Shown: piece by piece, positions 8,891 through 58,570 of the stretch
Numbering within the stretch: position 1 is the stretch's first letter
Layout: the number at the start of each line of letters is the position of its first letter
Assembly: GCF_004010195.1 (NCBI RefSeq)
Contig: NC_057720.1
Span: 91,523,319 to 91,587,318, forward strand
Direction: 5' to 3'
Length of the DNA stretch: 64,000 nucleotides
Origin: Chiloscyllium plagiosum
Taxonomy: Eukaryota
The notes under the pieces: model-generated
Databases searched by the model: none
Seen by the model: only the letters and a program-made list of their open reading frames with translations
What the model was told of the DNA's origin: nothing
Made by a program: the position numbers and the translations under genes

Positions 8891-9225
8891 TCAGTTTGAG
8901 CTTGGTTCCTTTACCGAACGTAAACGTTTAGGGTAGCTGTTACATTGCTGACAGTAATAGTCAGCGACATCCTCATTCTGAACGTTGCTGATTTTCAGGG
9001 TGGAACTGGTCCCTGATCCACTGCCGGTGAATCGCTCGGAGACTCCTGTGAATCGAGTTGCTGCATTGAAGATCAGGAGAGAAGGTTCCTGACCTTCTCG
9101 CTGCTGGTACCAAACAAGGACATTGCTAATGCTTTGACTGGCCACACAGATGATGGTTGCGGTCTGGCCCAGTCCCACTGACAGCACCGGGGGAGACTGG
9201 ATGATGATGATGTCCCCACTGATAC
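8891..9225 (-). pseudogene. IGKV: Pre-joined V-J exon of a kappa-type light chain, out of frame at the junction
   Basis: Encodes GISG-DIIIIQSPPVLSVGLGQTATIICVASQSISNVLVWYQQREGQEPSLLIF...FTGSGSGTSSTLKISNVQNEDVADYYCQQCNSYP (both Cys, WYQQ and DYYC present). J (ACG TTC GGT AAA GGA ACC AAG CTC AAA CTG A|gtaagt = TFGKGTKLKL) follows with no RSS in between. The 8 nt between CCT and ACG put J out of frame, and the V frame stops at TGA 8893-8891. Confidence 0.92.
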
Positions 9226-9411
9226 CTGAGGGGTCAGAGAGAAACACAGTGAAGTCAGAACTGTCACAGAAAGAGCCTGTCAAATGAGAGATTGTTGGAG
9301 ACACTGAGCACTCCTCTGGTTTCAACATTTTCCCTTCAATCACAAGTCAGTGGAATTGGAGTGAAATGGAGAGCAGCTAAAGATTCAAGGTGGAAGGAGA
9401 GAGATTTGTAC

Positions 9412-18454: not shown

Positions 18455-21400
18455 AGAACAAAGAACAAAGAAAACTACAGCACAGACTCAGACCCTTCGG
18501 CCCTCCAAGCCTGCGCCGATCCAGATCCTCTACCTAAACTGGCCATCAATTTTCCAAGGATCTGTATCCCTTTACTCCTTGCCCATTCATGTATCTGTCT
18601 GGATACATCTTTAGTGGTGCGATCGTGCCTGCCTCTACCACCTCCACTGGCAACATGTTCCAGGCACCAACTACCCTCTGCATAAAGAACTTTTCACGCA
18701 TTTCTCCCTTAAACTTTTTAAAGAACTTTTCACGCATTTCTCCCTTAAACTTTTCCCCTCTCACCTTGAACTCATGACCCCTAATAATTGAGTCCCCTCT
18801 CTGGGAAAAAGCTTCTTGCTATCCACTGTCTGTCTCTCTCTCTCTCTCATGATTTTGTAGATCTCAAGCAGATCCCCCCTCAATCTTTGACTTTCTCATG
18901 AAAATAATCCTAATCTACTCAATCTCTCTTCATAGCTCGTGCCCTCCATACAAGGAAATCCTGGTCAATCTCCTCTACACCCTCTCCAAAGCATCTATAT
19001 TCTTCTGGTAACATGGCGACCAGAACTGTACACAGTATTCCAAATGTGGCCAAACCAAAGTCCGATACAATTCTAACATGACCTGCCAACTCTTGTACTC
19101 AGTACCCTACCCGATGAAGGAAAGCATGCCATACACCTTCTTGACCACTCTATCGACTTGTGTTGCCACATTCAGGTTACAATGAACCTGAACACCCAGA
19201 TCTCTCTGTACATCAATTTTCCCCAGGGCTTTCCATTCACTGTATAGTTCACTCTAGAATTGGATCTTCCAAAATTCATCAACTCGCATTTGCACGGATT
19301 GAACTCCATCTGTCCCATTCTCTGCCCAACTCTCCAATCTATCTATTTTCTGCTGTATTCTCTGATGGTCCCCTTCACTATCTGAAACTCCACTAATCTT
19401 AGTGTCATCTGCAAACTTGCCAATCAGACCACCTATACCTTCCTCCAGATAATTTATGTACATCACAAACAACATGGATCCCTGTGGAACACCACTGGTC
19501 ACAGTTCTCCATTTTGAGAAACTCCCTTCCACTACTACTCTCTGTCTCCTGTTGCCCAGCCTATTCTCTATCCATCTGGCTAGTACACTCTGGACCCCAT
19601 GCGACGTTCATTTCTCCATCAGGCTATCATGGGGAACTTTGTGAAACAGCTTACTGAAGTCCATGTATATGACAATGACAGCCCTTCCCTCATCAATCAA
19701 CTTTGTCATTTCTTCAAAGAATTCTATTAAGTTGGTAAGACATGAAATTCCTTGCACAAAATCATGCTGCCTATCACTGATAAGCCCATTTTCTTCCAAA
19801 TGTAAATAGATCCAATCCCTCAGTATCTTCTCCAGCATCTTCCCTACCACTGATGTCAGGCTCCCCTGTTCATAATTACCTGGATTATCCTGGCTCCCTT
19901 TCTTAAACAAGGGGACAACATTAGCAATTCTCCAGTCGCCTGGGATCTCCCCCATGTTCAAGGCAGCTACAAAGATATCTGTTAAGGCCCCAGCTGTTTT
20001 CTCTCTCGCTTCCCTCAGTAATCTGGGATAGATCCCATCCAGACCTGTGGGCTTGTCCACCTTAATGCCTTTTCGAATACCCAACACTTCCTCCCTCCTT
20101 ATGCCGACTTGACCTAGAGTAATCAAACATCTATCCCTAACCTCAACATCCATCTTTTCCCTCTCCTTGGTGAATACCGACACAAAGTAATCATTAAGAA
20201 TCTCACCCATTTTCTCTGACTCCATGCCTAACTTTCCTCCTTTATCCTTGAGTGGGCCAACCCTTTCTCTAGTCACCTTCTTGCTCCTTATATATGAATA
20301 AAAGGTTTTGGGATTTTCCTTAACCCTGTTTGCTAATGAGCTTTCATGACCCCTTTTAGCCCTTTTAATTCCTCTTTTCAGATTGGTCCTATTTCCCAAT
20401 ATTCTGCCAAAGCCTCATCTGTTTTCAGCCACCTAGACCTTATGTATGCAACTTTTTTCCTCTTAGCTAGTATCACAATTTCACCTGTCATCCAGGATTC
20501 CCTAATCTTACCATTTTCATCCCTCATTTTCACAGGGACATGTCTGTCCTGCACTTTAATCAACCTCTCTTTAAAACCCTCCCACATTTCAAATGTGGAT
20601 TTACCTTCAAACTTCTGCTCCCAATGTACATTCCCATCATCTGCTGAATTTTGCTATAGTTGGTCTTCCCCCAATTTAGCACTCTTCCTTTAGGACCACT
20701 CTCTTCTTTGTCCATGAGCATTCTAAAACTTATGGAATTGTGATCACTATTCCCAAAGCAATCCCCGACTGAGGTTTCAACCACCTGTCCGGGCTCATTG
20801 CCCAGCACCAAGTCCAATATGACCCCTTCCTGAGATGGACTATTTACATACTGCTCTATAAAACCTGCCTGGATGCTCTGTACAAGTTCTGCTCCAACTA
20901 AACCTCTAACTCTCAGTGAATCCCAGTCAATCACCACCACATTGTTGCTCCTACATCTTTTCATAATCTGTTTCCATATTTGCACCTCAATCCCACGCTC
21001 ACTGTTGGGAGGCCTATTGTACAGCCCCAACATTGTTACCACATCCTTCCTATTTCTGCGCTCTGCCCATATTGCCTCACTGCTTGAGTCCTCCATAGTG
21101 CCCTCCTTCAGCACAGCTGTGATATCCTCTCTGACCTGTAATGTAACTCTTCCACCCCATTTTACCCCTGTCTCTATCCAACCTGAAGCATCTGTATCCT
21201 GGAATAATTAGTTGCTGAGCTTGCCCTTCCCTCAACCAACTCTTAGAAATAGCAATAACATCATACTCCCAGGTACTAATCCAAGCCCTGAATTCCTGAC
21301 TTACCTATTACATTTCTCACATTAACACAAATGCACCTCAGGCTACCTGTCACTTTGCATTCTTCAACTGCCCCCTGCCTATTCTTCCCCTTAGTCACGG

Positions 21401-25800: not shown

Positions 25801-28800
25801 TTTCCTCCATCACCCTAAATCTTGTGATACAATGATCACTATTCCCTAAATGTCCTCTGACTGACACTTGATCCACTTGGGCCTCCTCACTCCCAAAATC
25901 CAGATCTAGCAGAGCCTCCTTTCTCATTGGACTGTAAACACACAGCTGGAGAAAGTTCACCTGAACACACTCTCACAACTCTGGCCCCTTCCTGCCCTTC
26001 ACATTGCTACTACCCCAGTCAATATTCAGAAATTAAAGCCCCCCACTCCATTATAATGACTATAATATTTAGGCTTGCAGGTGTATTCCTCCACATCCTT
26101 CCCACTGGGTGGTGATTTATTGACTGCACTGAGGATTCTGTGGACCTTGATGTCCCTCTCTGATATTTCCCCCTGGATCCCACAGCCCTGCCAAGTTAGT
26201 TTAAACCCTCTCCAACAGCACGAGTAAATTTCCCCAAAGGAACTCAGTTCCAGCTCTATTTAGGAGCAACACTGTTTGGTCTGTCCAGGTCCCAATGTCA
26301 CAAGGATCTAAAGCCCTCCCTCCTGGACTCTTATTCCACGTCCTGTTCCTCTTCTCACTTGCATGGGGTACTGGGAGTAATCCAGAGATTCCTACTTTTG
26401 TGCTCCTGCTGCTAATTCCCTCCTGAGCTCCCTAAATTCTGACTGCAGGACCATATCCCTTTCCTCCCTCTGTCACTGAGGACTAATGTGAACCACAACT
26501 GTTCCCCCTCTGCCCTCAGGGTGCTCTGCAGCTGCTCAGTGACATCCTTGATCCTGGCACCAGGGAGACAACACACCATCCTGGATTCCCATCTGCAGCA
26601 GCAGAAACACCTATTGATTGCCCTCACTCTCGAATCTCCTCTCACTATCGCTCTTCCAGTCTTCCTTGTTCCCCCCCCTTGTTTTGACTGTTTTTTCCAA
26701 AGCTCCAAAACAATGCAACAGCATATAAAACAGTAATTGTTGATCCTGCAATTCGAGGAAATCACCTCCAGCAGCTAAAATACCTCAAAAAAGGAGCAGC
26801 TGTTACAGCCAGAAATTTTTCCCGTCCTCCTTGGATTACCCAGAATCTTTCTTAACGTCTAGAAATGTGCTCTCCACAGAGCTCTCAGCCTCACGGACAG
26901 TCCACACTGATACCAGCTGCTGCTTAAGCTCCGAGACCCGGAGCTCCAACTGCTGTCACTGACCACACTTCCTACACGCATGGTATTCCAGGAGCTGGGA
27001 AGTATCCTGAAATTCCCATATGGGTGCACATTCTCTCCACTCTTTGCTAATCTTTCACAAAGTTCTGATGACAAACAGCTGCAGCAGGGCTCACAGTCCA
27101 GTGGGTTCAGTGTTCCAGGGTTTTGGGGAAACTCTCCAGAAGGCTTTAAGAAATAGGAGCAGAAATCAGCCATTCAACCCATTGAATCTGCTCTGCTATT
27201 TGATCTTGGCAGATATGCTTCTCATCCCCATTCTCCTGCCTACTCCACAGGAACGTTTGATCACAAACTATCTTAACTATCACAAACCTATCTATCTCTG
27301 TCTTAAATACACTCAGTGACTTGTCTCCACTGCCCTCTGTAGCAATGAGTTCCACAGATTCCCCACCCTCTGGCTGAAGAAATTCTTCCTCATCTCAGCT
27401 CCAAAGGGTCGGCCCTTCATTCTGAGGCTGTGCCTTGGTTACCGAGCCTCTCCTATATTTGGAAACATCTTCTCTGGATCCACTCTATCCAGGCCTATCA
27501 GTATTCTGTAAATTTCAATATGATCCCTCCTCATCCTTCTAAACTCCATCGAGTACAGACCCAGAGTCCTCAACCATGCCTCATATGACAAGCCCTTCAA
27601 CCCCAGGATCATTCTTGTAAACCCCTTCAATGCCAACACATTGTTTCTTAAAATATGTGTCCCAAATCTGTTCACAATATTCCAAATGCAGTCTGACCAG
27701 AGCCGTACGCAGCTTCAGCAGTACATCTCCTCTTGCATTCTGGCTCTATTGAAATGAATGCTATCATTTCATTTGCCTTCCCAAGCACAAACTGGACCTG
27801 CCTGTTAACCTGAAAAGAAAGCTGAATGAGGTTTGTGGTTTAGATTTCCAAAGGTTTTCCTCATTTAGAAAACAGTCTTTGCAACTCTTCTTCCTACCAA
27901 AGTGCATAACCACACACTGTAACACATTGTATTCTATCTGCCACTTCTTTGCCCACTCTCTGAGCCTATCCAGGACCTTTTACAGCCTTCCCACTTCCTC
28001 AACACGACCTGTCCCTCCACCTATCTCATGCCATCTGCAAACTTAGCAACAATGTCTTCACTTGCTTCATCCAGGTTGTTAATGTATAATGTGAATAGTT
28101 ATGGTCCCAACATTGACACTTACAGGACTCTATCGGTCACCAGCTGCAATTGTTCCTCACTCACTGCTTTATGCCAAACTGCCAGTCCTCAGTCCATGCC
28201 AGTACCTCACCCCTAACACAATGGGCACTTATCTTATGTCAAATGCCTTCTGGAAAATCCAAATAGATTACTTCCTCGGACTCTCCTTTGTCTGATTGCC
28301 TCATTGCCTCCTCAAAGAATTCTAACAGATTTGCCAGGCATGATGTCTCCTTGATGAAACCGTGTTGACTCCGCCTTATTTTACCATTGCACTTCCAGGT
28401 CCTCTGCAATTTCATCCTTAGATTGAAGTCTAAAACCTTACCAACAACTTAGTCCAGGCTAACTGGCCTACAATGTCTCACCTTCTCCCTCCCTCCTATC
28501 TTAAACAGGGGTGTTGTGTGAGCCATTTTCCTGTCCCTTGCCCCCACCAAATCCCTCCCCACCCCAGCTCCACACCCTGACTCCACTGATTCCTGAAGAT
28601 CATCACCAATGCCCCCACAACCTCCTCAGCGATCTCCTTCAGAACACACTGGTGTAGTTCATCCAGTCTGGGTGAGTTATCCACATTCAGATCTTTCAGC
28701 TTCCCCAGTACCTCCTCCTTAGTGATGGCCACAACACTCCCCTCTGCCCCCTGACTAAAATTGGGTCCTTGAAGACAGAAACAGGGGAATATATTACGGG

Positions 28801-30562
28801 GAACAAAGAAATGGCAGAAGAATTGAATTGTTACTTCAGATCTGTGTTCACTGGGGAAGACACAAGCAAACTCCCTGAGGTAACTGTAGCTAAAGGACCT
28901 GCACTGAAGGGAATTTATATTTGCCAGGAATTGGTGTTGGAGAGACTGTTAGGTCTGAAGGTTGATAAGTCCCCGGGGCCTAATGGTCTACATCCCAGGG
29001 TACTGAAGGAGGTGGCTCGGGAAATCGTGGATGCGTTGGTGATTATTTTCCAGAGTTCGATAGATTTGGGATCAGTTCCTGCGGATTGGAGGGTGGCTAA
29101 TGTTGTACCACTTTTTAAGAAAGGTGGGAGAGACAAAGCAGGAAATTATATACCAGTTAATCTGATGTCAGTGGTGGGAAAGATGCTGGAGTCTATTATA
29201 AAGGATGAAATTATGACACATCTGGATAGTAGTAACAGGATAGGTCAGAGTCAGCATGGATTTATGAAGGGGAAATCATGCTTGACTAATCTTCTGGAAT
29301 TTTTTGAGGATGTAACTCTGAAGATGGACGAGGGAGATCCAGTAGATGTAGTGTACCTGGACTTTCAGAAAGCTTTTGATAAAGTCCCACATAGGAGGTT
29401 AGTGAGCAAAATTAGGGTGTATGGTATTGGGGGCAAAGCACTAACTTGGACTGAAGGTTGGTTGGCTGGTAGGAAACAAAGAGTAGTGATAAACGGCTCC
29501 ATTTCAGAATGGCAGGCAGTGACCAGTGGGGTACCGCAGGGATCAATGCTGGGACCGCAGCTTTTTACAATATATGTTAACGATATAGAAGATGGTATTA
29601 GTAATAGCATTAGCAAATGTGCTGATGATACTAAGCTGGGTGGCAGGGTGAAATGTGAGGAGGATGTTAGGAGATTACAGGGTGACCTGGAGGTTAGGTG
29701 AGTGTTCAGATGCATAGCAGATGCATTAACCATACATTTATCCACTTTGGTGGCAAGAACAGGAAGGCAGATTACTACCTAAGTGGAATCAATTTAGGTA
29801 ATGGGGCAGTACAAAGAGATCTGGGAGTTCTTGTACACCAGTCAATGAAGGTAAGCATGCAGGTACAGCAGGTAGTGAAGAAGGCTAATAGTATGCTGGC
29901 CTTCATAACAAGACGGATTGAGTATAGAAGCAAAGAGGTTCTTCTGCAGCTATACAGGGCTCTGGTGAGACCGCACCTGGAATATTATGCACAGTTTTGG
30001 TCTCCAAATTTGAGGAAAGACATTCTGGCTATTGAGGGAGTGCAGTGTAGGTTCACAAGGTCAATTCCTGGAATAGCGGGACTACCTTACGCTGAAAGAC
30101 TGGAGCGACTGGTTTTGTATACCCTTGAGTTTAGAAGACTAAGAAGGGATCTGATTGAGACATATAAGATTATTAAAGGATTGGACACTCTGGAGGCAGG
30201 AAACATGTTTCCGCTGATGGGTGAGTGCCGAGCCAGAGGACACACCTTAAAAATACAGGGTAGACCATTTAGGACAGAGATGAGGAGAAACTTCTTCACT
30301 CAGAGAGTGGTGGCTGTGTGGAATGCTCTGCCCCAGAGGGCAGTGGAGGCCCAGTCTCTGGATTCATTTAAGAAAGAGTTGGATAGAGGTCTCAAGGATA
30401 GTGGAATCATTGGTTATGGAGATAAGGCAGGAACAGGATACTGATTAAGGATGATCAGCCATGATCATATTGAATGGTGGTGCAGGCTCGAAGGGCAGAA
30501 TGGCCTACTCCTGCACCTATTGTCTATTGTCTATTGCCAGTCTTGAAGTACTGGTATGCTGC
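22276..30562. repeat. Arm 2 of the inverted segmental duplication (J-C intron of plus-strand cluster B)
   Basis: Same mosaic of TE fragments and junctions as 390-8554 in reverse complement; the 19-bp island at 22276-22294 is the exact reverse complement of 8536-8554. Confidence 0.9.
28756..30536 (+). mobile_element. Young 5'-truncated CR1-clade LINE with long RT ORFs
   Basis: ORFs 28769-29701 (310 aa) and 29698-30444 with canonical RT motifs; (TCTATTG)n tail ending at 30536; splits a sequence that is contiguous in arm 1 near position 415. Confidence 0.92.
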
Positions 30563-35321: not shown

Positions 35322-35636
35322 TACTCAGTGCGGCCTGTCTCTCAGTGTGAGTGTGTTACTTCGTGCAACCTGTAGGTGTCTCTCTCAGTGTGAGTGTGTT
35401 ACTCTGTGCTGCCTGTAGGTGTCTCTGAGGTCTATGTGTCTCCGAGCGATGGATTAAGAATGGGCCTTGTGCTGGGGATACTCAGTGCGGCCTGTCTCTC
35501 AGTGTGAGTGTGTTACTTCGTACAACCTGTAGGTGTCTCTGTCAGTGCGAGTGTGTTACTCTGTGCTGCCTGTAGGTGTCTCTCTGAGGTATGTGTCTCC
35601 GAGCGATGGATTAAGAATGGGCCTTGTGCTGGGGAT
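35322..35636 (+). repeat. Tandem duplication of about 157 bp within a degenerate TG/CT repeat region
   Basis: TACTCAGTGCGGCCTGTCT...GTGCTGGGGA occurs at 35322-35478 and 35479-35636. Confidence 0.85.
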
Positions 35637-36404
35637 TGAAGATGAGGCTTTAATTTTCTCAAATCATGAATGAAAAACAGTTCAGCTGATTCAGTCTGAG
35701 AGGCAGTTCATTCAGATGGCCAAAGTTAAAAATCACACAATACCAGGTTTGAGTCAAACAGGTTTATTTGGAAGTAGAAGTACTCGGTGCACTGTTCCTT
35801 CATCAGGTAGCTGCAGGGGCAGTATGACAGGACACAGAATTTATAGTAAATTCAGATGGCAGCTGAGAGTGTATTCTCGGAAAGGGAGGGATTTCAGAGA
35901 CAGTGGGCACTATGCTCCCTAATGTGTTGCCCAATTACAAGGGGATTTTCTGGATACAGGTTCAGAGCAGTTGTGGCTGCCTGCCCAGCCAATGCTGGCT
36001 AACCATAGTTGTATTTCAGATGTCAATTAGCCTGAAATTAGGAGCAGCAATATTACCTTACAGGGAGGGGAGCTGTTTGAGGGAGGGAGGTTAAATTCTT
36101 GCAGCCCCAAGAGAGGTTGCAGTGGATTAATGACAGGTATGACCACCATGAAGGTGCCAAGTTCTCTCCTCCTGTCCCAGCTGTGATGCCCCTCAGGTTA
36201 AAAACGTGACTGTGCTCCTTTCGGATGGTGACCATGTTCCTGGTTGAGGTAGGGAGGGAAGGTCAGCCTCTCCCAAAGGCAGCACAAGCTGGATTGAAGG
36301 GGAAACAAGAGTAAGCATGGGGAGATTGAGGGTGGCAGAAGGAGGGGGTTGGTTGGCAGGTTGTTATTCAGAGTCAGGTCCCAGAGAAGCAGTCCTTCTG
36401 ACAC

Positions 36405-39400
36405 TCCCCTTTTTATCTTTTTTCTTTTTTTTCACTTTTTTTTATATAACCCCCACACTACCGCCTAACTGCGGTAGTGCTTATTTTTTCCCCAGCACCC
36501 ATGGGTGTGTGTGTGTGCAGGTGTGAGACACAGTGAGAGACACAAAGTGCACGAATCTTTGTTCAATTTCCACCACCAGGAAGATAGGAAAACACCCGGG
36601 TGGCCAGTGACAAGCACTGCCCTTCACATCAAAGGGCAGTGCTGTGTGATCAAACAGTGAAGGGGAGGGTAGGGACTAAATGAAAATAATCTTGGAGGGG
36701 GAAATAATACACTCCACTCCCTACGGCGCCCACCTCTCCCTGAACAACTCCAGGGTGTTGGAGGACACCGCGTGCTCCTTTTCCAAGGACACCCGGGGCC
36801 CTAACGTAGACACTCCGTTTTTTTCTTTTTTTTTCTTTTTTCTTTTGTTTATTTTTTTTCTCTTTTTATTTTTAACCCCCACACTATCACCTAAATGCGG
36901 TCGTGCTTATTTTTTCCCCCAGCACCCATGGTGTGTGTGTGCAGGTGTGAGACACAGTGAAAGACACAAGGTGCATGAATTTTTATTCAATTTCCACCAC
37001 CAGGAAGATAGGAAAACACCCGGGTGGGCACTGACAAACACTGCCCTTCACATCAAAGGGCAGTGCTGTGTGATCAAACAGTGAAGGGGAGGGTAGGGAC
37101 TAAATGAAAATAGTCTTGGAGGGGGAAATAATGCACTCCACTCCCTGCGGCGCCCACCTCTCCCTGAACAACTCCAGGATGTTGGTGGACACCGCGTGCT
37201 CCTTCTCCAAGGACACCCGGGCTCTAACGTAGACAGCCCCCTTTTTTTTTTGGCCAGGCCCAGGAGCAAACCCACAAGGAGGTCGACACTCCTGTTTGTT
37301 TTTTTTCCTTTTTTTATTCTTTTTTTTTGCAGGTGTGAGACACAGTGAAAGACACAAAGTGCACGAATCTTTATTGAAATTCCACCACCAGGAAGATACG
37401 TAAACACCCGAGTGGCCAGTGACAAACACTGCCCTTCGCATCAAAGGGCAATGCTGTGTGATCAAAACAGTGAAGGGGAGGGTGGGGACTAAATCAAAAT
37501 AGAGTTGGAGGGAGAAATAATGCACTCCACTCCCTGCGGCGCCCACCTCTCCCTGAACAACTCCAGGGTGTTGGTGGACACTGCGTGCTCCTTCTCCAAG
37601 GACACCCGAGATCTAACTTAGACACCCCCCTTTTTTCTCTTTTTTTTACCTGTTTTTTTTTCTTATTAACCCCCACACTACCACCTAAGTGTGGTAGTGC
37701 TTATTTTTATCCCCAGCACCCATGGTGTGTGCGCGCAGGTGTGGGACACAGTGAGAGACACAAAGTGCATGAATCTTTGTTCAATTTCCACCACCAGGAA
37801 GATAGGAAAACACCCGGGTGGCCAGTGACAAGCACTGCCCTTCACATCAAAGGGCAGTGCTGTGTGATCAAACAGTGAAGGGGAGGGTAGGGACTAAATG
37901 AAAATAGTCTTGGAGGGGGAAATAATACACTCCACTCCCTACGGCGCCCACCTCTCCCTGAACAACTCCAGGGTGTTGGTGGACACCGCGTGCTCCTTTT
38001 CCAAGGACACCCGGGGCCCTAACGTAGACACTCTCTTTTTTTCTTTTTTTTCTTTTTTCTTTTGTTTATTTTTTTTTTCTCTTTTTATTTTTAACCCCCA
38101 CACTACCACCTAAATGCGGTCGTGCTTATTTTTTCCCCCAGCACCCATGGTGTGTGTGTGCAGGTGTGAGACACAGTGAAAGACACAAGGTGCATGAATT
38201 TTTATTTAATTTCCACCACCAGGAAGATAGGAAAACACCCGGGTGGCCAGTGACAAACACTGGCCTTCACATTAAAGGGCAGTGCTGTGTGATCAAAACA
38301 GTGAAGGGGAGATAGGGACTAAATCAAAATAGAGTTGGAGGGAGAAATGATGCACTCCACTCCCTGCGGCGCCCACCTCTCCCTGAACAACTCCAGGGTG
38401 TTGGTGGACACCGCGTGCTCCTTCTCCAAGGACACCCGGGATCTAACGTAGACACCCCCCTTTTTTCTCTATTTTTTTTCCTGTTCTTTTTTTTCTTATT
38501 AACCCCCACACTACCACCTAAGTGCGGTAGTGCTTATTTTTTTCCCCAGCACCCATGGTGTGAGCGCGCAGGTGTGAGACACAGTGAAAGACACAAAGTG
38601 CACCAATCTTTATTCAATTTCCACCACCAGGAAGATTGGAAAACACCCGGGTGGCCAGTGACAAACACTGCCCTTCACATTAAAGGGCAGTGCTGTGTGA
38701 TCAAAACAGTGAAGGGGAGGGTAGGGACTAAATCAAAATAGAATTGGAGGGAGAAATGATGCACTCCACTCCCTGCGGCGCCCACCTCTCCCTGAACAAC
38801 TCCAGGGTGTTGGTGGACACCGCGTGCTTCTTCTCCAAGGACACCCGGGCTCTAACGTACGCTCCCCTTTTTTTTTCTTCTTTTTTTTTAGTGCTGTGTG
38901 ATCAAAACAGTGAAAGGGAGGGTAGGGACTAAATCAAAATAGAGTTGGAGGGAGAAATACTGTCCAGGTTTTTTTTACTTTTTTTCTTTTTCTTTTTTTT
39001 CCCCAGCACCCATGGTGTGTGTGTGCAGGTGTGAGACACAGTGAAAGACACAAAGTGCACGAATCTTTATTCAAATTCCACCACCAGGAAGACAGGAAAA
39101 CACCCAGGTGGCCAGTGACAAACACTGACCTTCACATCAAGGGGCAGTGCTGTGTGATCAAAACAGTGAAGGGGAGGGTGAGGACTAAATCAAAATAGAA
39201 TTGGAGGGAGAAATAATGCACTCCACTCCCTGCGGCACCCAACTCTCCCTGAACAACTCCAGGGTGTTGGTCGACACCGCGTGCTCCTTCTCCAAGGACA
39301 CCCGGGCTCTAACGTAGACACCCCCCTTTTTTCTTTTATTTTACGTGTGAGACACAGTGAGAGAATCTCCTGTTTTTTTTTCTGGACCTGTTAATGGCCA

Positions 39401-39791
39401 GTTTGGGTCCCTTTTTTTTCCCCCCCAGCACCCATGGTGTGTGTGTGCAGGTGTGAGACACAGTGAAAGACACAAAGTGCACGAATCTTTATTCAAATTC
39501 CACCACCAGGAAGATAGGCAAACACCCAGGTGACCAGTGACAAACAGTGCCCTTCACATCAAAGGGCAGTGCTGTGTGATCAAAACAGTGAAGGGGAGGG
39601 TAGGGACTAAATCAAAATAGAATTGGAGGGAGAAATAATGCACTCCACTCCCTGCGGCGCCCACCTCTCCCTGAACAACTCCAGGGTGTTGGTCGACACC
39701 GCGTGCTCCTTCTCCAAGGACACCCGGGCTCTAACGTAGACACCCCCCTTTTTTCTTTTTTTTTCTTTTTTTTTTCTAGTTATTTTTTTTT
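36405..39791 (-). mobile_element. Tandem concatemer of 8 short 3'-end copies plus 4 small fragments of a Tx1/L1-clade non-LTR retroelement, each with its own poly(A)
   Basis: Units of about 300-365 bp separated by T tracts on the plus strand. The minus strand encodes a Tx1-like ORF2 C-terminus (YVRARVSLEKEHAVSTNTLELFRERWAPQGVECIISPSNSILI*) followed by AATAAA in several units. TTCTGACAC flanks the array at 36396-36404 and 39790-39798. Confidence 0.8.
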
Positions 39792-41679
39792 CTGACACAG
39801 TCAGGGACACCGCGTGGTGCTGACGGTCATGCTGCTGGTGGTAAAGGTCGCATTTCATCTGGAACTGCACTCCCTCCCTAAACACTCCCCTCTTGTCCCC
39901 ACATACCTCACTACAGCTCCTGGAGATGCCAGCTAGCACCCTGTGCCCTCGCTCAGTCTCCATTGACCGTGCCTCCATTAGCCTTGACCCTCCTCCCAAG
40001 CACTTATTTGGGCCTTCACTTAAGGTTGAGCCATTTCCTCTGACCCTTGATGATGAGTTTGCCGTCTTGGAACTGTCTAACCTAGTCACCATTAACCTGT
40101 ACTGCCCTCTCAGCATGGAGCGTAGATTGATACAGCACAGAAAAGGCCCTTTAGCCCATTGAGTCTGCACAGACATAACTACCACTAAAGGCACTCTAAT
40201 CCCAATTTCCTGCATTTATCCCAAATCCTTGAATGTTATGATATTTAAATGTTGTAAGGTTTCCAGTCTCCACTACCTTCCCTGATAGGGGGTTGTGTGT
40301 TTATAATAGCTCTTGTGGTTGAAGAATCAAGGGATATGGGGTAGGGAGGGATTACAGTATAGTGCTCCATTACCAGCCACAATCATATTGAATGGCATAG
40401 CAGGCTGGAGGGGCCAAATGGCCTACTCCTGCTCCTATCCTCGATGTTTCTATGTAGCGTAAAATAGATTGCCAGGTGGAGGGCACTCTGTCAGATGGGT
40501 AAGTATCCATTCACAGACTCCCCCCACACTACTCCCCTTCCATTTTAATTGAGTCCACTCCCCCTCTTCCTATGTATTTGTTATCTGACCAGTGACCACA
40601 CCTCCCCTTCACCACCCCGGCAGGGAGCTGTGCTAATAACCCATCGTTTGTTTTAATTTACTAACTGGGTGATGTGGATGGGGTTTTCGAAAACAGGAAG
40701 AGCTGAATTCTTATCGCCCCTTGTGCTGATTTAGTTGTGTGCCTCCCTCAATATGAGCGACACAGCTGCCTCACAGAGCCAGGGACCTATGTTCGAGAAT
40801 CATACAGCACAGAAATAGGCCCTTTGGCCCACCAGGTCAATGCTGACCAACAAACACTAAACTAGACTAATCCCATTCATCCGTAGTTGTCTGGAGACTC
40901 CTATGCCCTGGCATTATAAGTGCTCATCCAAATGTTTTTTAAAGTTTGTGAGATTTTCAGCCTGCACCACCCGCTCAGGCAGCATGTTCCATATACCTAC
41001 CACACGCTGGGTCAAAAAATACTTCCACCTTAATCTTTTGACCGCTGTTCTTAAACAGGTCTGGGTGAGGAGCGGAAGCTGCAGAACAGTGTGAGAGGTC
41101 AGGAGCGGAGAGAGGGAGAACAGTTTGAGGGTGAGGAATGGAGGCTGGAGCAGGAAGACACTTGTGTTCTGGAAAGCAGCACATATAGGGAAGAGATCCA
41201 AGAGCTGATAGGAATAGTCTCCATGCTTCCTAACAGTAGCTTTATGGTGGGAAAGAGAATAAATCAGGAGATAATGAGGGCTTGGAACAAAGGCTGCTCA
41301 TTAATTACAAATGATTAATTACAATTAATCCTCATGTTGATTATTTAGAGTCAGATTTTTCTTTTTAATTCTTTCACGGGATGAAGGCGTCCCTGATGAG
41401 GACAGCATTTATTGCCCACCCCTAATTGCCTCAGAGGGCAGTTAACAGTCAACCACATTGCTGTAGGATTCCCATGTAGGCCAGACCAGGGAAGGATGAC
41501 AGTTCCCTTCCCTAAAGGACATTAATGAAATGGATGTGTTTTCCTGACAATCGACATGGATTTATGGTTATCGTTAGGCTCTTAATTGCAGATTTTTAAA
41601 ATTGATTACAAATTCCCCCATCTGCCATAGTGGGATTTGAACCTGCGTCCCCAGAACCATATCTGGGTCTCTGTGCATT

Positions 41680-46914: not shown

Positions 46915-48832
46915 CATAGAATATAGAACATGGAACATTACAGCACAGTACAGGCCCTTCGGCCCTCGATATTGCACTGACCTGTCGTACCAATCTGAAG
47001 CCCATCTAATCTACACTATTCAATGTATGTCCATTTGCTTGTCCAATGACGATTTAAATGCACTTAAAGTTGGTGAATCTACCACCGTTGCAGGCAAAGT
47101 ATTTCATACCCTTACTACTCTCTGAGTAAAGAAACTACCCCTGACATCTGTCCTATATCTATCACCCCTCAATTTAAAGCTATACCCCCTCGTGCTCGCC
47201 GTCACCATACTTGGACAAAGGCTCTCCCTATCCAACCTATCTAACCCTCTGATTATCTTATATGTGTCTATTAAGTCACCTCTCAATCTTCTTCTCTCCA
47301 ACGAAAACAGCCTCAAGTCCCTCAGCCTTTCCTCGTAAGATCTCCCTTCCATATCAGGCAACATCCTAGTAAATCTCCCCTGCACCCTTTCCAAAGCTTC
47401 CACATCCTTCTTATAATGCGGTGACCAGAACTATACACAATACTCCAAGTGCAGCCGCACCAGAGTTTTGTACAGCTGTAGCATAACCTCATGGTTCCAG
47501 ACCTCAATCCCTCTATTAATAAAAGCTAAAATACTGTATGTGTTCTTAACAACCCTGTCGAACACCTTGCTGAAATATACATATACAACACATCAACCGG
47601 TTTACTCTCATCTACCTGTTTGGTCACCTTCTTAAAGAACTCAGTAAGGTTTGTGAGGCCCGACCTACTCTTCACAAAACCATGCTGACTATCCCTAATC
47701 AAATTATTTTTTTCTAGATGATTATAAATCCTATCTCTTACAACCTTTTCCAACACTTTACCAACAATTGAAGTAAGGCTCACTGGTCTATAATTACCAG
47801 GGTTGTCTCTATTCCCTACTTGAACAGGGGAACCACATTTGCTATCCTCCAATCTTCTGGCACTATTCCTGTAGACAATGACATTTAAAAATCAACTAAT
47901 CCAGCAGGGGGATGGGAACCAAAATTGTAGTTCGAGCATAGAAACGATTGAGAGTAGAGAAATCAAGTTTCAGGGACGCAAGATGGCACCGGCAAGCAAG
48001 AAGTTGTTTTGAAGTGTGTCCACATCAACGCCAGGAGCATCCGGAATAAGGTGGATGAACTTGCAGCATGGGTTGGTACCTGAAACTTTGATGTTGTGGC
48101 CATTTCGGAGACATGGATAGAGCAGGGACAGGAATGGTTATTGCAGGTTGCGGGATTTATATGTTTCAGTAAGAACAGAGAAGATGGTAAAAGAGGGGGA
48201 GGTGTGGCATTGTTAGTCAAGGACAGTATTACGTTTGCAGAAAAGATGTTTGGGGACTCGTCAACTGAGGTACCAGGGGCTGAGGTTAGAAACAGGAAAG
48301 GAGAGGACACCCTGTTGGGATCTTTCTATAGGTCTCCGAGTAGTTCCAGAGATATAGAGGAAAGGATAGCAAAAATGATTCTCGATAGGAGTGAGACAGA
48401 CAGGGTAGCTGTCATGGGGGACTTCAACTTTCCAAATATTGACCGGGAACATTATAGTGCGAGTACTATAGATGGATCAGTTTTTGTCCAGTGTCTGCAG
48501 GAGGGCTTCCTGACACAGTATGTAGACAGGCCAACAAGGGGCAAAGCCACATTAGATTTGGTACTGGGTAATAAGCCTGGCCAGGTGTTAGACTTGGAAG
48601 TGTGTGAGCACTCTGGTGATAGCGATCACAATTCTGTTATGTTTACTTTAGTAATAGAAAGGGATAGGTGTATACCACTGGGCAAGAGTTACAGCTGGGA
48701 GAAAGGCAATTACGATGCGATTAGGCAAGGTTTAGGAAGCATAGGATGGGGAAGGAAACTGCAGGGGATGGGCACAATAAAAATGTGGAGCTTATTCAAG
48801 GAAAAGCTCCTGAGTGTCCTAGATAAGTATAT
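46915..48832. mobile_element. CR1-clade LINE with its 3' half on the minus strand (46915-47895) and its EN half on the plus strand (47897-48832)
   Basis: Minus-strand RT ORFs 47104-47403 and 47526-47852; plus-strand APE ORF 48096-48896 (AISETW, MGDFNFP, LDLVLGN, SDHN). Confidence 0.8.
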
Positions 48833-48932
48833 CCAGATTCCTGAAATAAGATGTTCAGTCAGAAAGAGGGAAAACTGTGGGAAGTGGTGGGATTGATCTG
48901 GAGCCAGACAGTACTGACCAACCTTAAGCACT

Positions 48933-54754: not shown

Positions 54755-55083
54755 CTACACACATTCTGATCTCCTGATGCTCTTGCTGAGGGGAGAGGAG
54801 AGGGTCACGTGGGTGAGGGCACAGGAGAAGCGAGTGTTGGACTCCCAGTCAGACCCAGAGAGGGTCAGCAGGCTGCTGACACTGTAGGTGCTGTCCGAAG
54901 CTCGCAGGTAGTTGCTGGTCTGAACCCCGTCCGAAATGACTGCACCGTCCTTCTTCCACTGCACCTCCAGCTCATCGGGATAGAAGTGATTGGCAAGGCA
55001 CATCAGTGTGGCAGTGCCCTTGGCATTGACCTGCTCCGGAGAGGGGGGCAGCAGGGTCAGCTTGGGCTGAGAGTTTTGACCAT
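54755..55083 (-). CDS. IGKC: Kappa-type (NS4-like) light-chain constant exon, intact reading frame
   Basis: Polypyrimidine tract plus AG at 55085-55084, phase-1 start. Encodes (x)GQNSQPKLTLLPPSPEQVNAKGTATLMCLANHFYPDELEVQWKKDG...DSTYSVSSLLTLSGSDWESNTRFSCALTHVTLSSPLSKSIRRSECV*, a C1-set domain with the penultimate inter-chain Cys. Confidence 0.95.
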
Positions 55084-56839
55084 CTGAAAAGCAAGAGAAA
55101 CAATTTTGATCCCTGCCATTTGAAGGGATGTTAACTCTCTGATCATGAACTGGTAAAACAATCCATTTGAAGATTTGTGGCCAACACCAAACAAACCCCA
55201 TAAAAGGACAGGGATTTTAAAAATTGCATCTTGGGATGTGGGCGTCACTGGCAGGGCCAGTATTTATTGCTCATCCCTAATTGCCTCTGAGAAGGTGATG
55301 GTGAAAGAGAAGGGACAGTTTTGGACCATTGTTTAGGAAATGAATGTGAACAGCTGGAAGGGCTCTCAATGGGGGAGCATTTCAGTGACAGTGATCAGAA
55401 CTCAGTGAGATTGAGAGGAGGGATGGAAATGGAGAACCATGGAGCAAGTATAAAAATTTTCTTTTGGGAATGAACCATTTTACTGAACTGGGCAGTGACT
55501 TGGTAAAACTTGGCTGAAAGACAAAATGCAGGGGTGAAATTAACCAGGACCTGAGGAAAGCAAAGAGCTGACAGGATGAGATGTGTCCAAAGGAAGTGAA
55601 GGAAATCCCAGTGATGTTTATAATCACAGAAAGAACAAGAAGAGAATGAAGGAATGTGTGAGGCCCATTCGATAGCAGGAAGGGAACTTGTGAGCGGTGG
55701 TGCAAGATGGAGCGATGGTTCTTCATGAAATCTTTCGGTCGGTTTTCACAAAAGAGAGGGACAAAGCAGAAACTGTAGTTCAGGAGGAAGACTGTGCAAT
55801 ATTGGAATGGCATCTTTCAGATCTGAAAGATTCCCAGTTCATCCAAGGAAAAGAAAGATTCATGCTGTCCCCAAGTCATTTGCAGACAGTGTGGGACTTG
55901 ATTGAAATGAGGTCACTGAAGGAATGCAGGAAATGTGGAAGAGAGATTGTACACAGCAAGATCCCGCAAGCAACAATGAACCAAGGAACATTTTGAGTGA
56001 CGTTTGTTCAGGGATAAATATCAGCCTGAATATGATTCAAAGAGAAAATAACTGGAACAGTTGGATGGAAAATGAGAAAATGAAAGTTAAAGGAGAAGGG
56101 AGGATTACTGGGTAGTGATGGGATTTGATGTTACCAGGAAATAAAAGGAAAGGACAGAATATTATGAATGTCATATTGTACTGAGGGAACTTAAAAGTGC
56201 AGGGAAGCTCAATTACAGACCAAACTTAAAGGCTTTGTATCTTAATGCTTGACCCATTTGGAAAAAGGTAAACAAAGCTGTACCACACAAACCAAGGTAA
56301 ATCAAGTTTCTGAGGAATTTAAACAAAACAAAGAAGGTAGGGGCTCAGAATAAATTACTAAAGTATCCAGACCAATTGATAGGATCAAGAGTATGGAAAG
56401 GATCAGGAATCGAACTTGAGGCACCACAGGGTGGAATGGTAGATCAATGGTTAGCACTGCTGTCTCACAGCTTCGGAGACACAGACTCAATTCCAACGAC
56501 TGTCTGTGTGGGATTTACACATTCTCCCCGTGTCCACTTGGGTTTCCTCCCATTGTCACAAAGATGTGTAGGTTAGGAGGATTATCCATGGGAATTGTAG
56601 GGTGGGTGGGATACTATTTGGACGGTCAGTCTGGGCTGAATGGCCTGCTTCCACACTGTAGGGATTCTGTGATTTCTAAAGGAGATAACTATGAGAAGGA
56701 GGCAGTCAGTGCATGACTGAGGGTGTTGTACTTCAATTCATCGAGTATATGAAACAAGGTAAATGAGCCTGTAGCGCAGGGACGTGGCTGCAAGGGGATC
56801 AGGGCTGGGAACTAAATATCCAAGGATGCACATCCTATT

Positions 56840-58570
56840 GAAAGGAAATGCAGGGGGATAGAGGGTCAAGTGTGAAGGAGGAACTAAAGGTAATCCTTGT
56901 TAGTCAGGAAATGGTCTTGGGGAGACTGATGGTATCAAAACTTAATATGTCCCCAGGGCCTGATACTCTGCATCCCAGAGTCCTTAAGAAAGTGGGTGGA
57001 AAAATAGTGGACACATTGGTGATCATTTTCCAACATTCTGTCGACTCTGACAGAGTTCCAATGGACTGGACAGTATCCAATGTAACCCCCCTTTTTAATA
57101 AAAGGAAGGAGAGTGAAAATGAGGAATTATACAGGAGGAAAACGCTGGAGTCAGTTATTAAAGATACAATAACTAAGCATTTGGAAAGCAGTGACAGGAT
57201 CGGTCCAAGTCAGCATGGATTTACGAAAGGGAAATCAGGCCTGACACATCTTCTGGAAGGTTTTGAGGATGTGATCAGTTGAGAGTGGACACGGTTGAAT
57301 CAGTGGACAACAAAAACAAAAATTAATGAAAGTTTTCGGCCGATCTGGCAATATCTGTGGAGAGCAATCAAAGTTAACGTTTCGGATTGACTGACCCTCC
57401 CTCAGAACTCAGTGGGTGTTGTGTATCTGGACTTTCAAAAGGCTTTTGACAAAGTCCTATACGATAGGTTAGTGAGCAAAAGTAAACCTTATGGTATTGG
57501 AGGTAATGTATTGACATGGAGAGAGAACTCGTTGCCAAATAGAAAGCAGAGAGTTGGAATAAATGGGTCCTTCTCAGAGTGGCAGGCAGTGATGAATGGG
57601 GTACCGCAGGGTTCAGTGCTGGGACCCCAGCTGTTCACAATATACATAAATGATATGGACAAAGGAATTGAATGCAATCCCTTCAAATTTGCAGATGACA
57701 CGAAGCTGGGTGACAGTGTGTGCTGTGAGGAGGATGCTAAGAGGCTGCAGGGTTACTTGGACAGGCTGGCTAAGTGAACAAATGCTTGGCAAATGCAATA
57801 TAATGTGGGTAAATGTGAGATTATCCACTTTGCTGGTAAACGGGAAGTCAGATTATTAGTGAATGGTGAAAGTTTAGGAAAAGGTGAGGTGCAATGAGGG
57901 CTGGGTGTCATGGTGGAACAGTCACTGAAAGGGGGCATGCAGGTGCAGCAGGCAGTGAGGAAAGCTAATGGCATGGTGGCCTTCACAGTGAGAGGATTTG
58001 TGTATTGGAGTAAGGATGTCTTGCAGAATTATACAGGGCCTTGGTGAGGCCTCACCTTGAGTATTGTGTGCAGTTTTGGTCTCCTAGTCTGATGAAGGAC
58101 ATTCTTGCTATTGAGGGAGTCGAGCGAAGGTTCACCAGACTGATTCCTGGGACAGCAGGACTGACGTATGAGGAAAGACTGGATCGAATGGGTTTGTATT
58201 CTCTGGGATTTAGAAGAATGAGGGGAATCTCTTGGAAACATGTAAAATCCGGATGGGATTTGACAGTGTCAATGCTGGAAGAATGTTCTCGATATTAAAA
58301 AGTCCAGAATTAGGGGTCACAGTCTAAGATTAAGTTATTCAGATGTTGTGAACCAGTGGAATTCTCTACCACAGAAAACCGGTGGGGCCAGTTTGTTTGT
58401 TATATACAAGGGGGACTGGGCCCTTGAGGCTGAAGGGATTTATGGGTATAGGGGGAGAGTGGTAATGGGATACTAAGATTGCATAATCAGCCATGATCAT
58501 ATTGAATTGCGGTGCAGGCTCAAAGGGTTGAATGGCCTATTCCTGCAGCAATTTTCTATGTTTCTACGTT
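56840..58570 (+). mobile_element. CR1-clade RT/3' fragment with a Penelope-like insert of about 100 bp (57307-57408)
   Basis: YLDFQKAFDKV, GVPQGSVLGP, KFADD and VRPHLEYCVQFWSP motifs; TCAGTGG flanks the insert at 57300-57306 and 57409-57415. Confidence 0.82.

What the first reader, a model, noticed from the sequence alone, without database searches (positions are those of the whole stretch)
36801..39748. All eight large units share the same 5' start, and the motif there (GACAC + C run) matches the genomic target end
Seen: each long unit ends on the plus strand at ...CTAACGTAGACAC or a close variant (36813, about 37236, 37625, 38031, 38455, about 38860, 39321, 39743), followed by a C-rich linker and Ts. 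The left genomic flank also ends GACAC-TCCCC-T(n), and the small fragment at 37252-37289 ends GACAC-TCCTG-T(n). Random 5' truncation would not give one shared start. Inference: this is either a short non-autonomous SINE-like derivative of a Tx1 3' end with a defined 5' end, or a GACAC-specific priming/cleavage preference that lets the element extend its own array. Established: many Tx1-clade elements are target-sequence specific.
Basis: partly seen in the sequence, partly recalled or inferred. Interest (0 to 1): 0.7.

Follow-up and report, generated by a model that had tools for sequence, protein, structure and literature searches.

The report
Stacked LINE copies inherit one junction
A jumping gene of the Tx1 family has piled up at one spot in the promoter region of another repeat, and the stacked copies share a starting point likely because each new copy borrows the front end of the copy already there; it is not a new short mobile element.

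Summary
In detail: eight 5'-truncated Tx1-clade LINE tails start at the same base of ORF2, and six are preceded by exact GACAC. The SINE reading fails. The parent reads GCGGT|TACG (1646 read-through copies against 10 matches to the window junction), and founder starts at 56 sampled loci are scattered. GACAC is the end of the target-site duplication at the TATA-like word of an LTR; empty paralogues show the site, and only 1 of 54 sampled sites carries GTGTC. The shared start is locus-specific but family-wide: 23 of 32 multi-unit arrays repeat their own start. It is not whole-unit copying: rare variants shared by same-start neighbours fall from 29/154 (5' third) to 1/101 (3' third), and 8 of 158 units share a tail. 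Best reading (inferred, about 0.6): new cDNA primed at the regenerated site pairs with the resident copy and inherits its junction; later gene conversion is the main rival. This scan found the LTR targeting before on other DNA; aimed Tx1 insertion and TSD-separated arrays are in print. The variant gradient is what is added here.

The parts
36355..36399 (-). LTR remnant downstream of the insertion site (start of the R-like part)
   Evidence: Continues the empty target in paralogues; resembles by eye the LTR copies; boundaries approximate
36400..36416 (-). 3'-most copy of the target-site duplication (TATA-like A-rich word ending in GTGTC)
   Evidence: Same letters as the empty site in paralogous cluster copies
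36448..36808 (-). Unit U1, likely founder; most diverged of the eight (0.052)
   Evidence: haplotype private to this locus
36874..37231 (-). Unit U2: middle shares private variants with U1/U4, 3' part and tail shared with U5
37252..37289 (-). Short ORF2 fragment behind a non-local linker, own A tail (likely 3' transduction from another array)
37328..37620 (-). Unit U3, 3'-shortened, own A tail
37654..38026 (-). Unit U4: copy of U1 over most of its length, 3' end and tail like U6 (block duplication)
38082..38450 (-). Unit U5
38487..38859 (-). Unit U6; linker lacks GACAC; least diverged (0.016)
38890..38958 (-). Short fragment behind a non-local linker, own A tail
38994..39316 (-). Unit U7, ends at an internal A run
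39345..39406 (-). Two short fragments, each behind a non-local linker and with an A tail
39413..39738 (-). Unit U8; first 43 codons are the ORF2 C-terminus
   Evidence: 16/37 identical to Xenopus Tx1 ORF2 1256-1292, E 6e-8
39739..39791 (-). Last linker and A tail, joined to an inversion breakpoint
39792..40305 (.). Segment inverted relative to paralogues; about 610 bp (with the LTR's CCAAT/TATA side) and about 665 bp around it are missing
   Evidence: L099 for the lengths; inversion also against L098, L107, L111

Best explanation
The array is a stack of 5'-truncated Tx1-clade LINE insertions separated by copies of a target-site duplication at the TATA-like word of an LTR, and the units share one start likely because each new cDNA pairs with the copy already lying just downstream of the nick and so inherits its 5' junction. 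Shown: element identity, target, TSD, scattered starts between loci, repeated starts within loci, 5' parts shared in place while 3' parts and tails differ. Inferred: the nick at the A-rich end of the regenerated TSD, priming on poly(A) RNA from other copies (with alternative 3' ends and transduced linkers), annealing of the cDNA to the resident top strand, and fill-in giving TSD + resident 5' part + new 3' part + new tail. Unequal exchange later duplicated blocks here (U5/U2, U4/U1; inferred from shared variants and tails).
For: Parent is Tx1-like: ORF2 51% identical over 97% of an 820-aa query to Xenopus Tx1 ORF2. Empty paralogous sites carry the linker once. 30 of 60 sampled loci touch the LTR; 4 of 19 LTR hits are filled at this site. 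23 of 32 multi-unit arrays repeat a start; pairs within 4 nt: 102/361 within loci, 413/12519 between. All 7 multi-hit places keep one offset, while 23 places show 14 offsets. Rare variants shared by consecutive same-start units: 29/154, 16/126, 1/101 by third; one pair per group 24/106, 15/88, 1/53, p 0.00035; between loci 6/2832. Same element region shared 16/73 when near a unit's start and 1/112 when far from it. 8 of 158 units have a twin tail; 34 of 60 groups have differing 3' ends. A paralogous site (L111) built its own six-unit array on a different start.
Against: No excess of longer over shorter upstream units among different-start neighbours (11 against 10), though capture predicts one. 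Age polarity is weak (3'-most unit more diverged in 28 of 44 informative groups, p 0.10). Only 14 of 60 groups contribute a shared variant in the 5' third. The window itself shows block duplications, so DNA exchange does act. The exact junction recurs at 5 other loci. Sequence data cannot time the pairing: conversion after insertion gives the same gradient.
Confidence: 0.62

Rival explanations
1. Two steps: each new copy inserts with its own random start, and later gene conversion or unequal exchange between the filled allele and the older allele replaces that junction with the founder's.
For: Gives the same 5'-to-3' gradient. Block exchanges are visible in the window. No longer/shorter asymmetry. 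22 of 64 consecutive local-TSD pairs do differ in start.
Against: Must act on 42 of 64 consecutive pairs over 100-400 bp of homology, while leaving few duplicated tails (8 of 158), which sister exchange would be expected to make.
Confidence: 0.25
2. Plain tandem duplication of one truncated copy at the DNA level, then drift of the tails.
For: U1/U2/U4 haplotype occurs 3 times in the genome, all in this array; U4/U1 and U5/U2 share blocks.
Against: Predicts flat sharing and twin tails; found 1/101 sharing in the 3' third and 8 of 158 twin tails. Non-local linkers and new fragments sit between units.
Confidence: 0.06
3. The array's own transcript, from the LTR promoter, is reverse-transcribed back into the same locus.
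For: The target is a CCAAT/TATA-like region; units with one start end at different A-tailed points.
Against: Predicts shared 3' variants, not found; repeated starts also occur at non-LTR sites such as L158, L165, L171.
Confidence: 0.04
4. One reading: a SINE-like derivative with a defined 5' end, or a GACAC-specific cut that fixes the start.
For: The same junction occurs at 5 other loci, all behind the LTR-type target word.
Against: Parent lacks GTGTC there; 10 matches against a control of 12 and 1646 read-through copies; this offset is 2 of 23 places; 56 scattered founder starts; GTGTC at 1 of 54 sites.
Confidence: 0.02

Closest known systems
Xenopus Tx1L and crocodilian Tx1-8_Crp / Tx1-4_AMi, SINEU-3 with Tx1-Mar (Kojima 2015, PMC4494074; passages and section 15 read; supplements not looked at)
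   Same: Tx1-clade LINE aimed at another transposon; two crocodilian families prefer LTR retrotransposons; tandem SINEU-3 copies sandwich a TSD by sequential insertion.
   Different: The passages read do not name a TATA site or describe truncated units that share a locus-specific start with different 3' ends. The supplements, not seen, may show such junctions.
Tandem R1 arrays in Drosophila rDNA (Stage and Eickbush 2009, PMC2718515; passages and section 13 read)
   Same: New copies insert into the 14-bp TSD at the 5' end of a resident copy.
   Different: R1 clade, rDNA target; identical junctions there are ascribed to amplification of one event, not to chimeric new insertions.
Double insertion then unequal exchange (McGurk and Barbash, bioRxiv 10.1101/158386; passages read)
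   Same: TSD at tandem junctions; arrays grow from repeat insertions.
   Different: There distinct 5' truncations mark independent insertions (6 of 10 jockey dimers); here independent 3' ends come with the same truncation.
cDNA annealing to nearby homologous DNA: L1 templated insertions (Gilbert et al. 2005, not held; known only through a passage of bioRxiv 10.1101/2024.08.27.596794) and R2 'anneal' 5' junctions (PMC11371274, passages read)
   Same: The cDNA 3' end pairs with homologous DNA at the target to form the 5' junction.
   Different: Described for tumours, cultured cells or engineered templates; here it would be the usual route of array growth in a germ line, with the homology supplied by the previous insertion.

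Membership tests
Tx1 clade non-LTR retrotransposon | ORF2 with AP-type endonuclease and reverse transcriptase | tested here: met
   Long copy L071: RVT_1 E 8e-33, Exo_endo_phos E 0.001 below cut-off; L1 ORF2 best PDB match over residues 120-717
Tx1 clade non-LTR retrotransposon | Closer to Tx1 than to other named LINEs | tested here: met
   51% identity over 97% of the query to Xenopus Tx1 ORF2, the best named hit; C-terminal part 41%; window peptide 43%
Tx1 clade non-LTR retrotransposon | Placement in an RT tree, and subgroup (Keno/Tx1-Mar or other) | not tested
   No tree built; Repbase families not available
Target-specific Tx1 (over 20% of flanks of one type, PMC4494074) | One flank type in more than 20% of copies | tested here: met
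   30 of 60 loci on contig C1 have the LTR on at least one side, 17 on both, with one LTR copy as probe
SINE | Defined 5' end shared by dispersed copies | tested here: not met
   56 founder starts from 1 to 1197, 2 within 4 nt of this one
SINE | Head from tRNA, 7SL, 5S or snRNA | tested here: not met
   The unit begins inside ORF2; no Rfam scan was run
SINE | Own transcript starting at the unit's first base | tested here: inconclusive
   No start pile at that base in one single-cell poly(A) run, a library that cannot map 5' ends well
TSD-separated re-insertion array (R1 type) | Target duplication between units, single in the empty site | tested here: met
TSD-separated re-insertion array (R1 type) | Independent insertions show distinct 5' truncations | tested here: not met
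   42 of 64 consecutive local-TSD pairs share the start
Ty3/Gypsy-like LTR (the target) | TG...CA ends, primer site, RT-RNase H next to the LTR | tested here: met
   Ends and a TGGCG word after the LTR seen by eye; RT_RNaseH_2 E 1e-16 downstream of the LTR in L055; 2 of 3 peptides scanned had no hit
Ty3/Gypsy-like LTR (the target) | Domain order with integrase last; working promoter | not tested
   No full element examined; promoter activity is inferred from motifs only

The most novel reading that the evidence does not exclude
In this genome a site-seeking LINE routinely completes its 5' end by pairing with the copy already at the site, so every locus propagates its own founder junction while collecting new 3' ends from across the genome: a natural, genome-wide record of homology-directed 5' joining in retrotransposition.
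Probability: 0.55. Interest if true: 0.6.

Novelty: new variant of a known kind. Interest (0 to 1): 0.42.

Why it matters
How LINE cDNA is joined at its 5' end is still debated, and evidence for annealing comes mostly from cultured cells and engineered R2 templates. Hundreds of arrays here would give a natural test set. It also warns that identical 5' truncations in tandem LINE copies do not prove DNA duplication or a SINE, and that counting distinct truncations undercounts insertions. The targeting itself is a known habit of Tx1 elements.

Tried and rejected
SINE with fixed start: rejected. GACAC as specificity word: rejected. Truncation hot spot at this base: not supported, 2 of 23 places; no microhomology seen by eye between the TSD end and the parent at this base. 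Independent genome-wide sources for the U1/U2/U4 haplotype: rejected. Longer-versus-shorter asymmetry test: null, 11 against 10. Age polarity: inconclusive, p 0.10. LTR flanks of other loci did not match the window by BLAST; the site was found through paralogues instead. No RNA holder listed for the window stretch. RNA lay on a parent copy: run X21 gave 1813 reads, X22 none; A tails at three places, no start pile at the window's start, an adapter-type loose end 42 nt upstream in 16 reads; reads come from all copies. The array was not checked against reads of other individuals. Literature: searches for the shared-start pattern returned 0 papers; some searches gave only the relatives listed; passages of PMC5105311, PMC1920257 and PMC4640811 added nothing; Gilbert 2005 is not held. 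Repbase reports and subscription journals are outside the library, so absence from print is not shown.

Full report
Observation. The array spans about 36400-39790 (8.1 copies of a 422-nt period). Eight long units on the minus strand start at the same base. Exact GACAC precedes six; one has GACAG and one CGCTC. Four short fragments lie between them, each behind a linker unlike the local one and each with its own A tail. The window lies in an immunoglobulin light-chain-like cluster (V-set at 8891-9346, C1-set at 54755-55216) of a 3.56-Gb genome.

Element. Each unit begins with the last 43 codons of an ORF2 (16/37 identical to Xenopus Tx1), then a 3' UTR and an A-rich tail. Long copies of several kb carry an upstream frame with a CCHC-like motif seen by eye (no Pfam hit) and an ORF2 with endonuclease and RT; an 820-aa piece is 51% identical to Xenopus Tx1 ORF2. 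A 30-nt word from the 3' end has 2388 exact copies. The parent reads GCGGT|TACG where the units read GTGTC|TACG, so GTGTC is not element sequence.

Target. Flanks of many copies are a roughly 235-bp LTR with CCAAT- and TATA-like words; insertions fall at the TATA-like word. 4 of 19 LTR hits are filled there (the probe began at the site, so this may be biased upward); 546 exact empty sites match one pattern. In 60 loci taken in order along contig C1 (60 of the 72 I counted in the list), 30 touch this LTR. One LTR is followed by an RT-RNase H remnant. The window's own site is revealed by paralogous cluster copies: 13 stretches in the visible part (output cut; some may be allelic contigs) hold the linker once between the CCAAT side and the window's left flank. 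So the linker is the TSD and GACAC is its end on the side away from the A tail. Only 1 of 54 sampled first junctions has GTGTC, while 35 have a TAAA/TATA/TAAC/TAAG word. By the standard TPRT model (own knowledge) the priming nick is at the A-rich end.

Is the start fixed? No. First-unit starts at 56 loci run from 1 to 1197 of a 1235-nt reference; 2 are within 4 nt of this start at 874. The window junction has 10 genome matches (4 in the window, 5 Tx1 junctions elsewhere, 1 unrelated; control 12) against 1646 read-through copies. Among 38 matches with the TSD end within 30 nt upstream, 23 places with direct junctions show 14 offsets, 2 of them at this one; two further places with a transduced piece were set aside. 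This sample is weighted to short copies, being chosen by the 3' end.

But shared starts are the rule within loci. 23 of 32 clusters with two or more units repeat a start; 83 of 139 units are in such groups; pairs within 4 nt are 102 of 361 within loci and 413 of 12519 between loci (pairs are not independent). All 7 multi-hit places keep one offset. Paralogous copies of the window's own site built separate arrays: L111 has six units on another start, L110 two on a third, L218 a single unit with the window's start.

Not whole-unit copying. Across 90 loci (the 60 of C1 and 30 picked from earlier searches), 60 same-start groups hold 160 units. Rare substitutions (in at most 2 loci; CpG and simple repeats masked) shared by consecutive members: 29/154, 16/126 and 1/101 from the 5' to the 3' third (93 pairs). 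One pair per group: 24/106, 15/88, 1/53, Fisher p 0.00035; C1 only: 12/49, 7/48, 1/51. It holds when the first 15 nt and low-coverage positions are dropped (13/77, 10/93, 1/94); between loci 6/2832. The same element region is shared 16/73 in units that start near it and 1/112 in units that start far upstream. 8 of 158 units have a near-identical end and tail in their group, and 34 of 60 groups differ in 3' end. 49 of 75 A-tailed shortened ends lie in the 90 nt below an internal AATAAA, which fits alternative polyadenylation (inferred). In L080-L084 a canonical linker plus 8 nt of LTR and a new A tail precede the local TSD, as a 3' transduction would leave.

In the window. U1, U2 and U4 share a haplotype found nowhere else (3 genome matches). 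U2 has it in the middle but a different 3' end from U1; U4 copies U1 but ends like U6; U5 and U2 share 3' part and tail. By my reading two unequal exchanges from a U6-U3-U2-U1 ancestor explain U4 and U5, leaving six different 3' ends on one start. Upstream, 39792-40305 is inverted against paralogues and about 610 bp with the LTR's CCAAT side are lost, so the true first unit is unknown.

Mechanism. Each insertion regenerates the target. After a nick at the TSD upstream of a resident copy, the cDNA faces a homologous top strand; pairing and fill-in would give TSD, resident 5' part, new 3' part, new tail. This accounts for the shared start, the gradient and the new tails in one step (inferred). 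Against it: no excess of longer starts (11 against 10 of 64 pairs, 42 same), weak age polarity (28 against 16, p 0.10), only 14 of 60 groups informative in the 5' third. Conversion after insertion gives the same pattern and cannot be excluded. The assembly has gaps, and the array was not checked against reads.

Known and new. Tx1 families aimed at transposons, including LTR elements, and tandem copies around a TSD are in PMC4494074 (passages, section 15). Insertion into the 5' TSD is in PMC2718515 (section 13). Distinct truncations as the mark of double insertion are in bioRxiv 158386 (passages). cDNA annealing is in PMC11371274 (passages) and cited to Gilbert 2005 in bioRxiv 2024.08.27.596794 (passage; original not held). 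Earlier notes of this scan report the LTR-TATA targeting in this genome several times, and two note shared starts. I found no paper on shared starts with independent 3' ends (and those under Tried and rejected). Verdict: real; not a SINE; a known kind of targeting with a likely new wrinkle in 5' joining. Interest 0.42.

Noticed in passing
window 8891-9346 (-) and 54755-55216 (-): Immunoglobulin V-set and C1-set exons of light-chain type; the array sits in a duplicated cluster segment whose paralogues were hit independently at the same LTR site.
   Followed up: partly
window 39792-40305: 514-bp inversion with deletions on both sides; the breakpoint next to the A tail ends in GTGTCAG on the minus strand, like the target end, which hints at an endonuclease-linked rearrangement (untested).
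   Followed up: partly
L218:242-594: A paralogous cluster site holds a single unit with the same start as the window's array, with both TSDs and the intact CCAAT side; flank only about 80-87% like the window, so shared ancestry, conversion or recurrence is open.
   Followed up: partly
L021 flanks around 1501 and 1942: The Tx1 copy appears by eye to interrupt an env-like reading of an endogenous retrovirus; observed only.
   Followed up: no
L002:1459: 16 RNA reads in run X21 carry an adapter-type loose end at one base inside ORF2, 42 nt upstream of the window's start: a possible RNA 5' end or RT stop.
   Followed up: no
L015, L017, L158, L165, L171: Repeated starts also at sites where the LTR was not seen; in L015 about 45 nt of flank is duplicated with the unit.
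   Followed up: partly
window 19608-21207, 28676-30444, 47526-48896, 56842-57777: Broken LINE reverse-transcriptase and endonuclease-like frames of another type (CR1-like by eye).
   Followed up: no
window 35322-35636: 157-nt tandem duplication built of 43-nt subunits, also present in paralogues.
   Followed up: no
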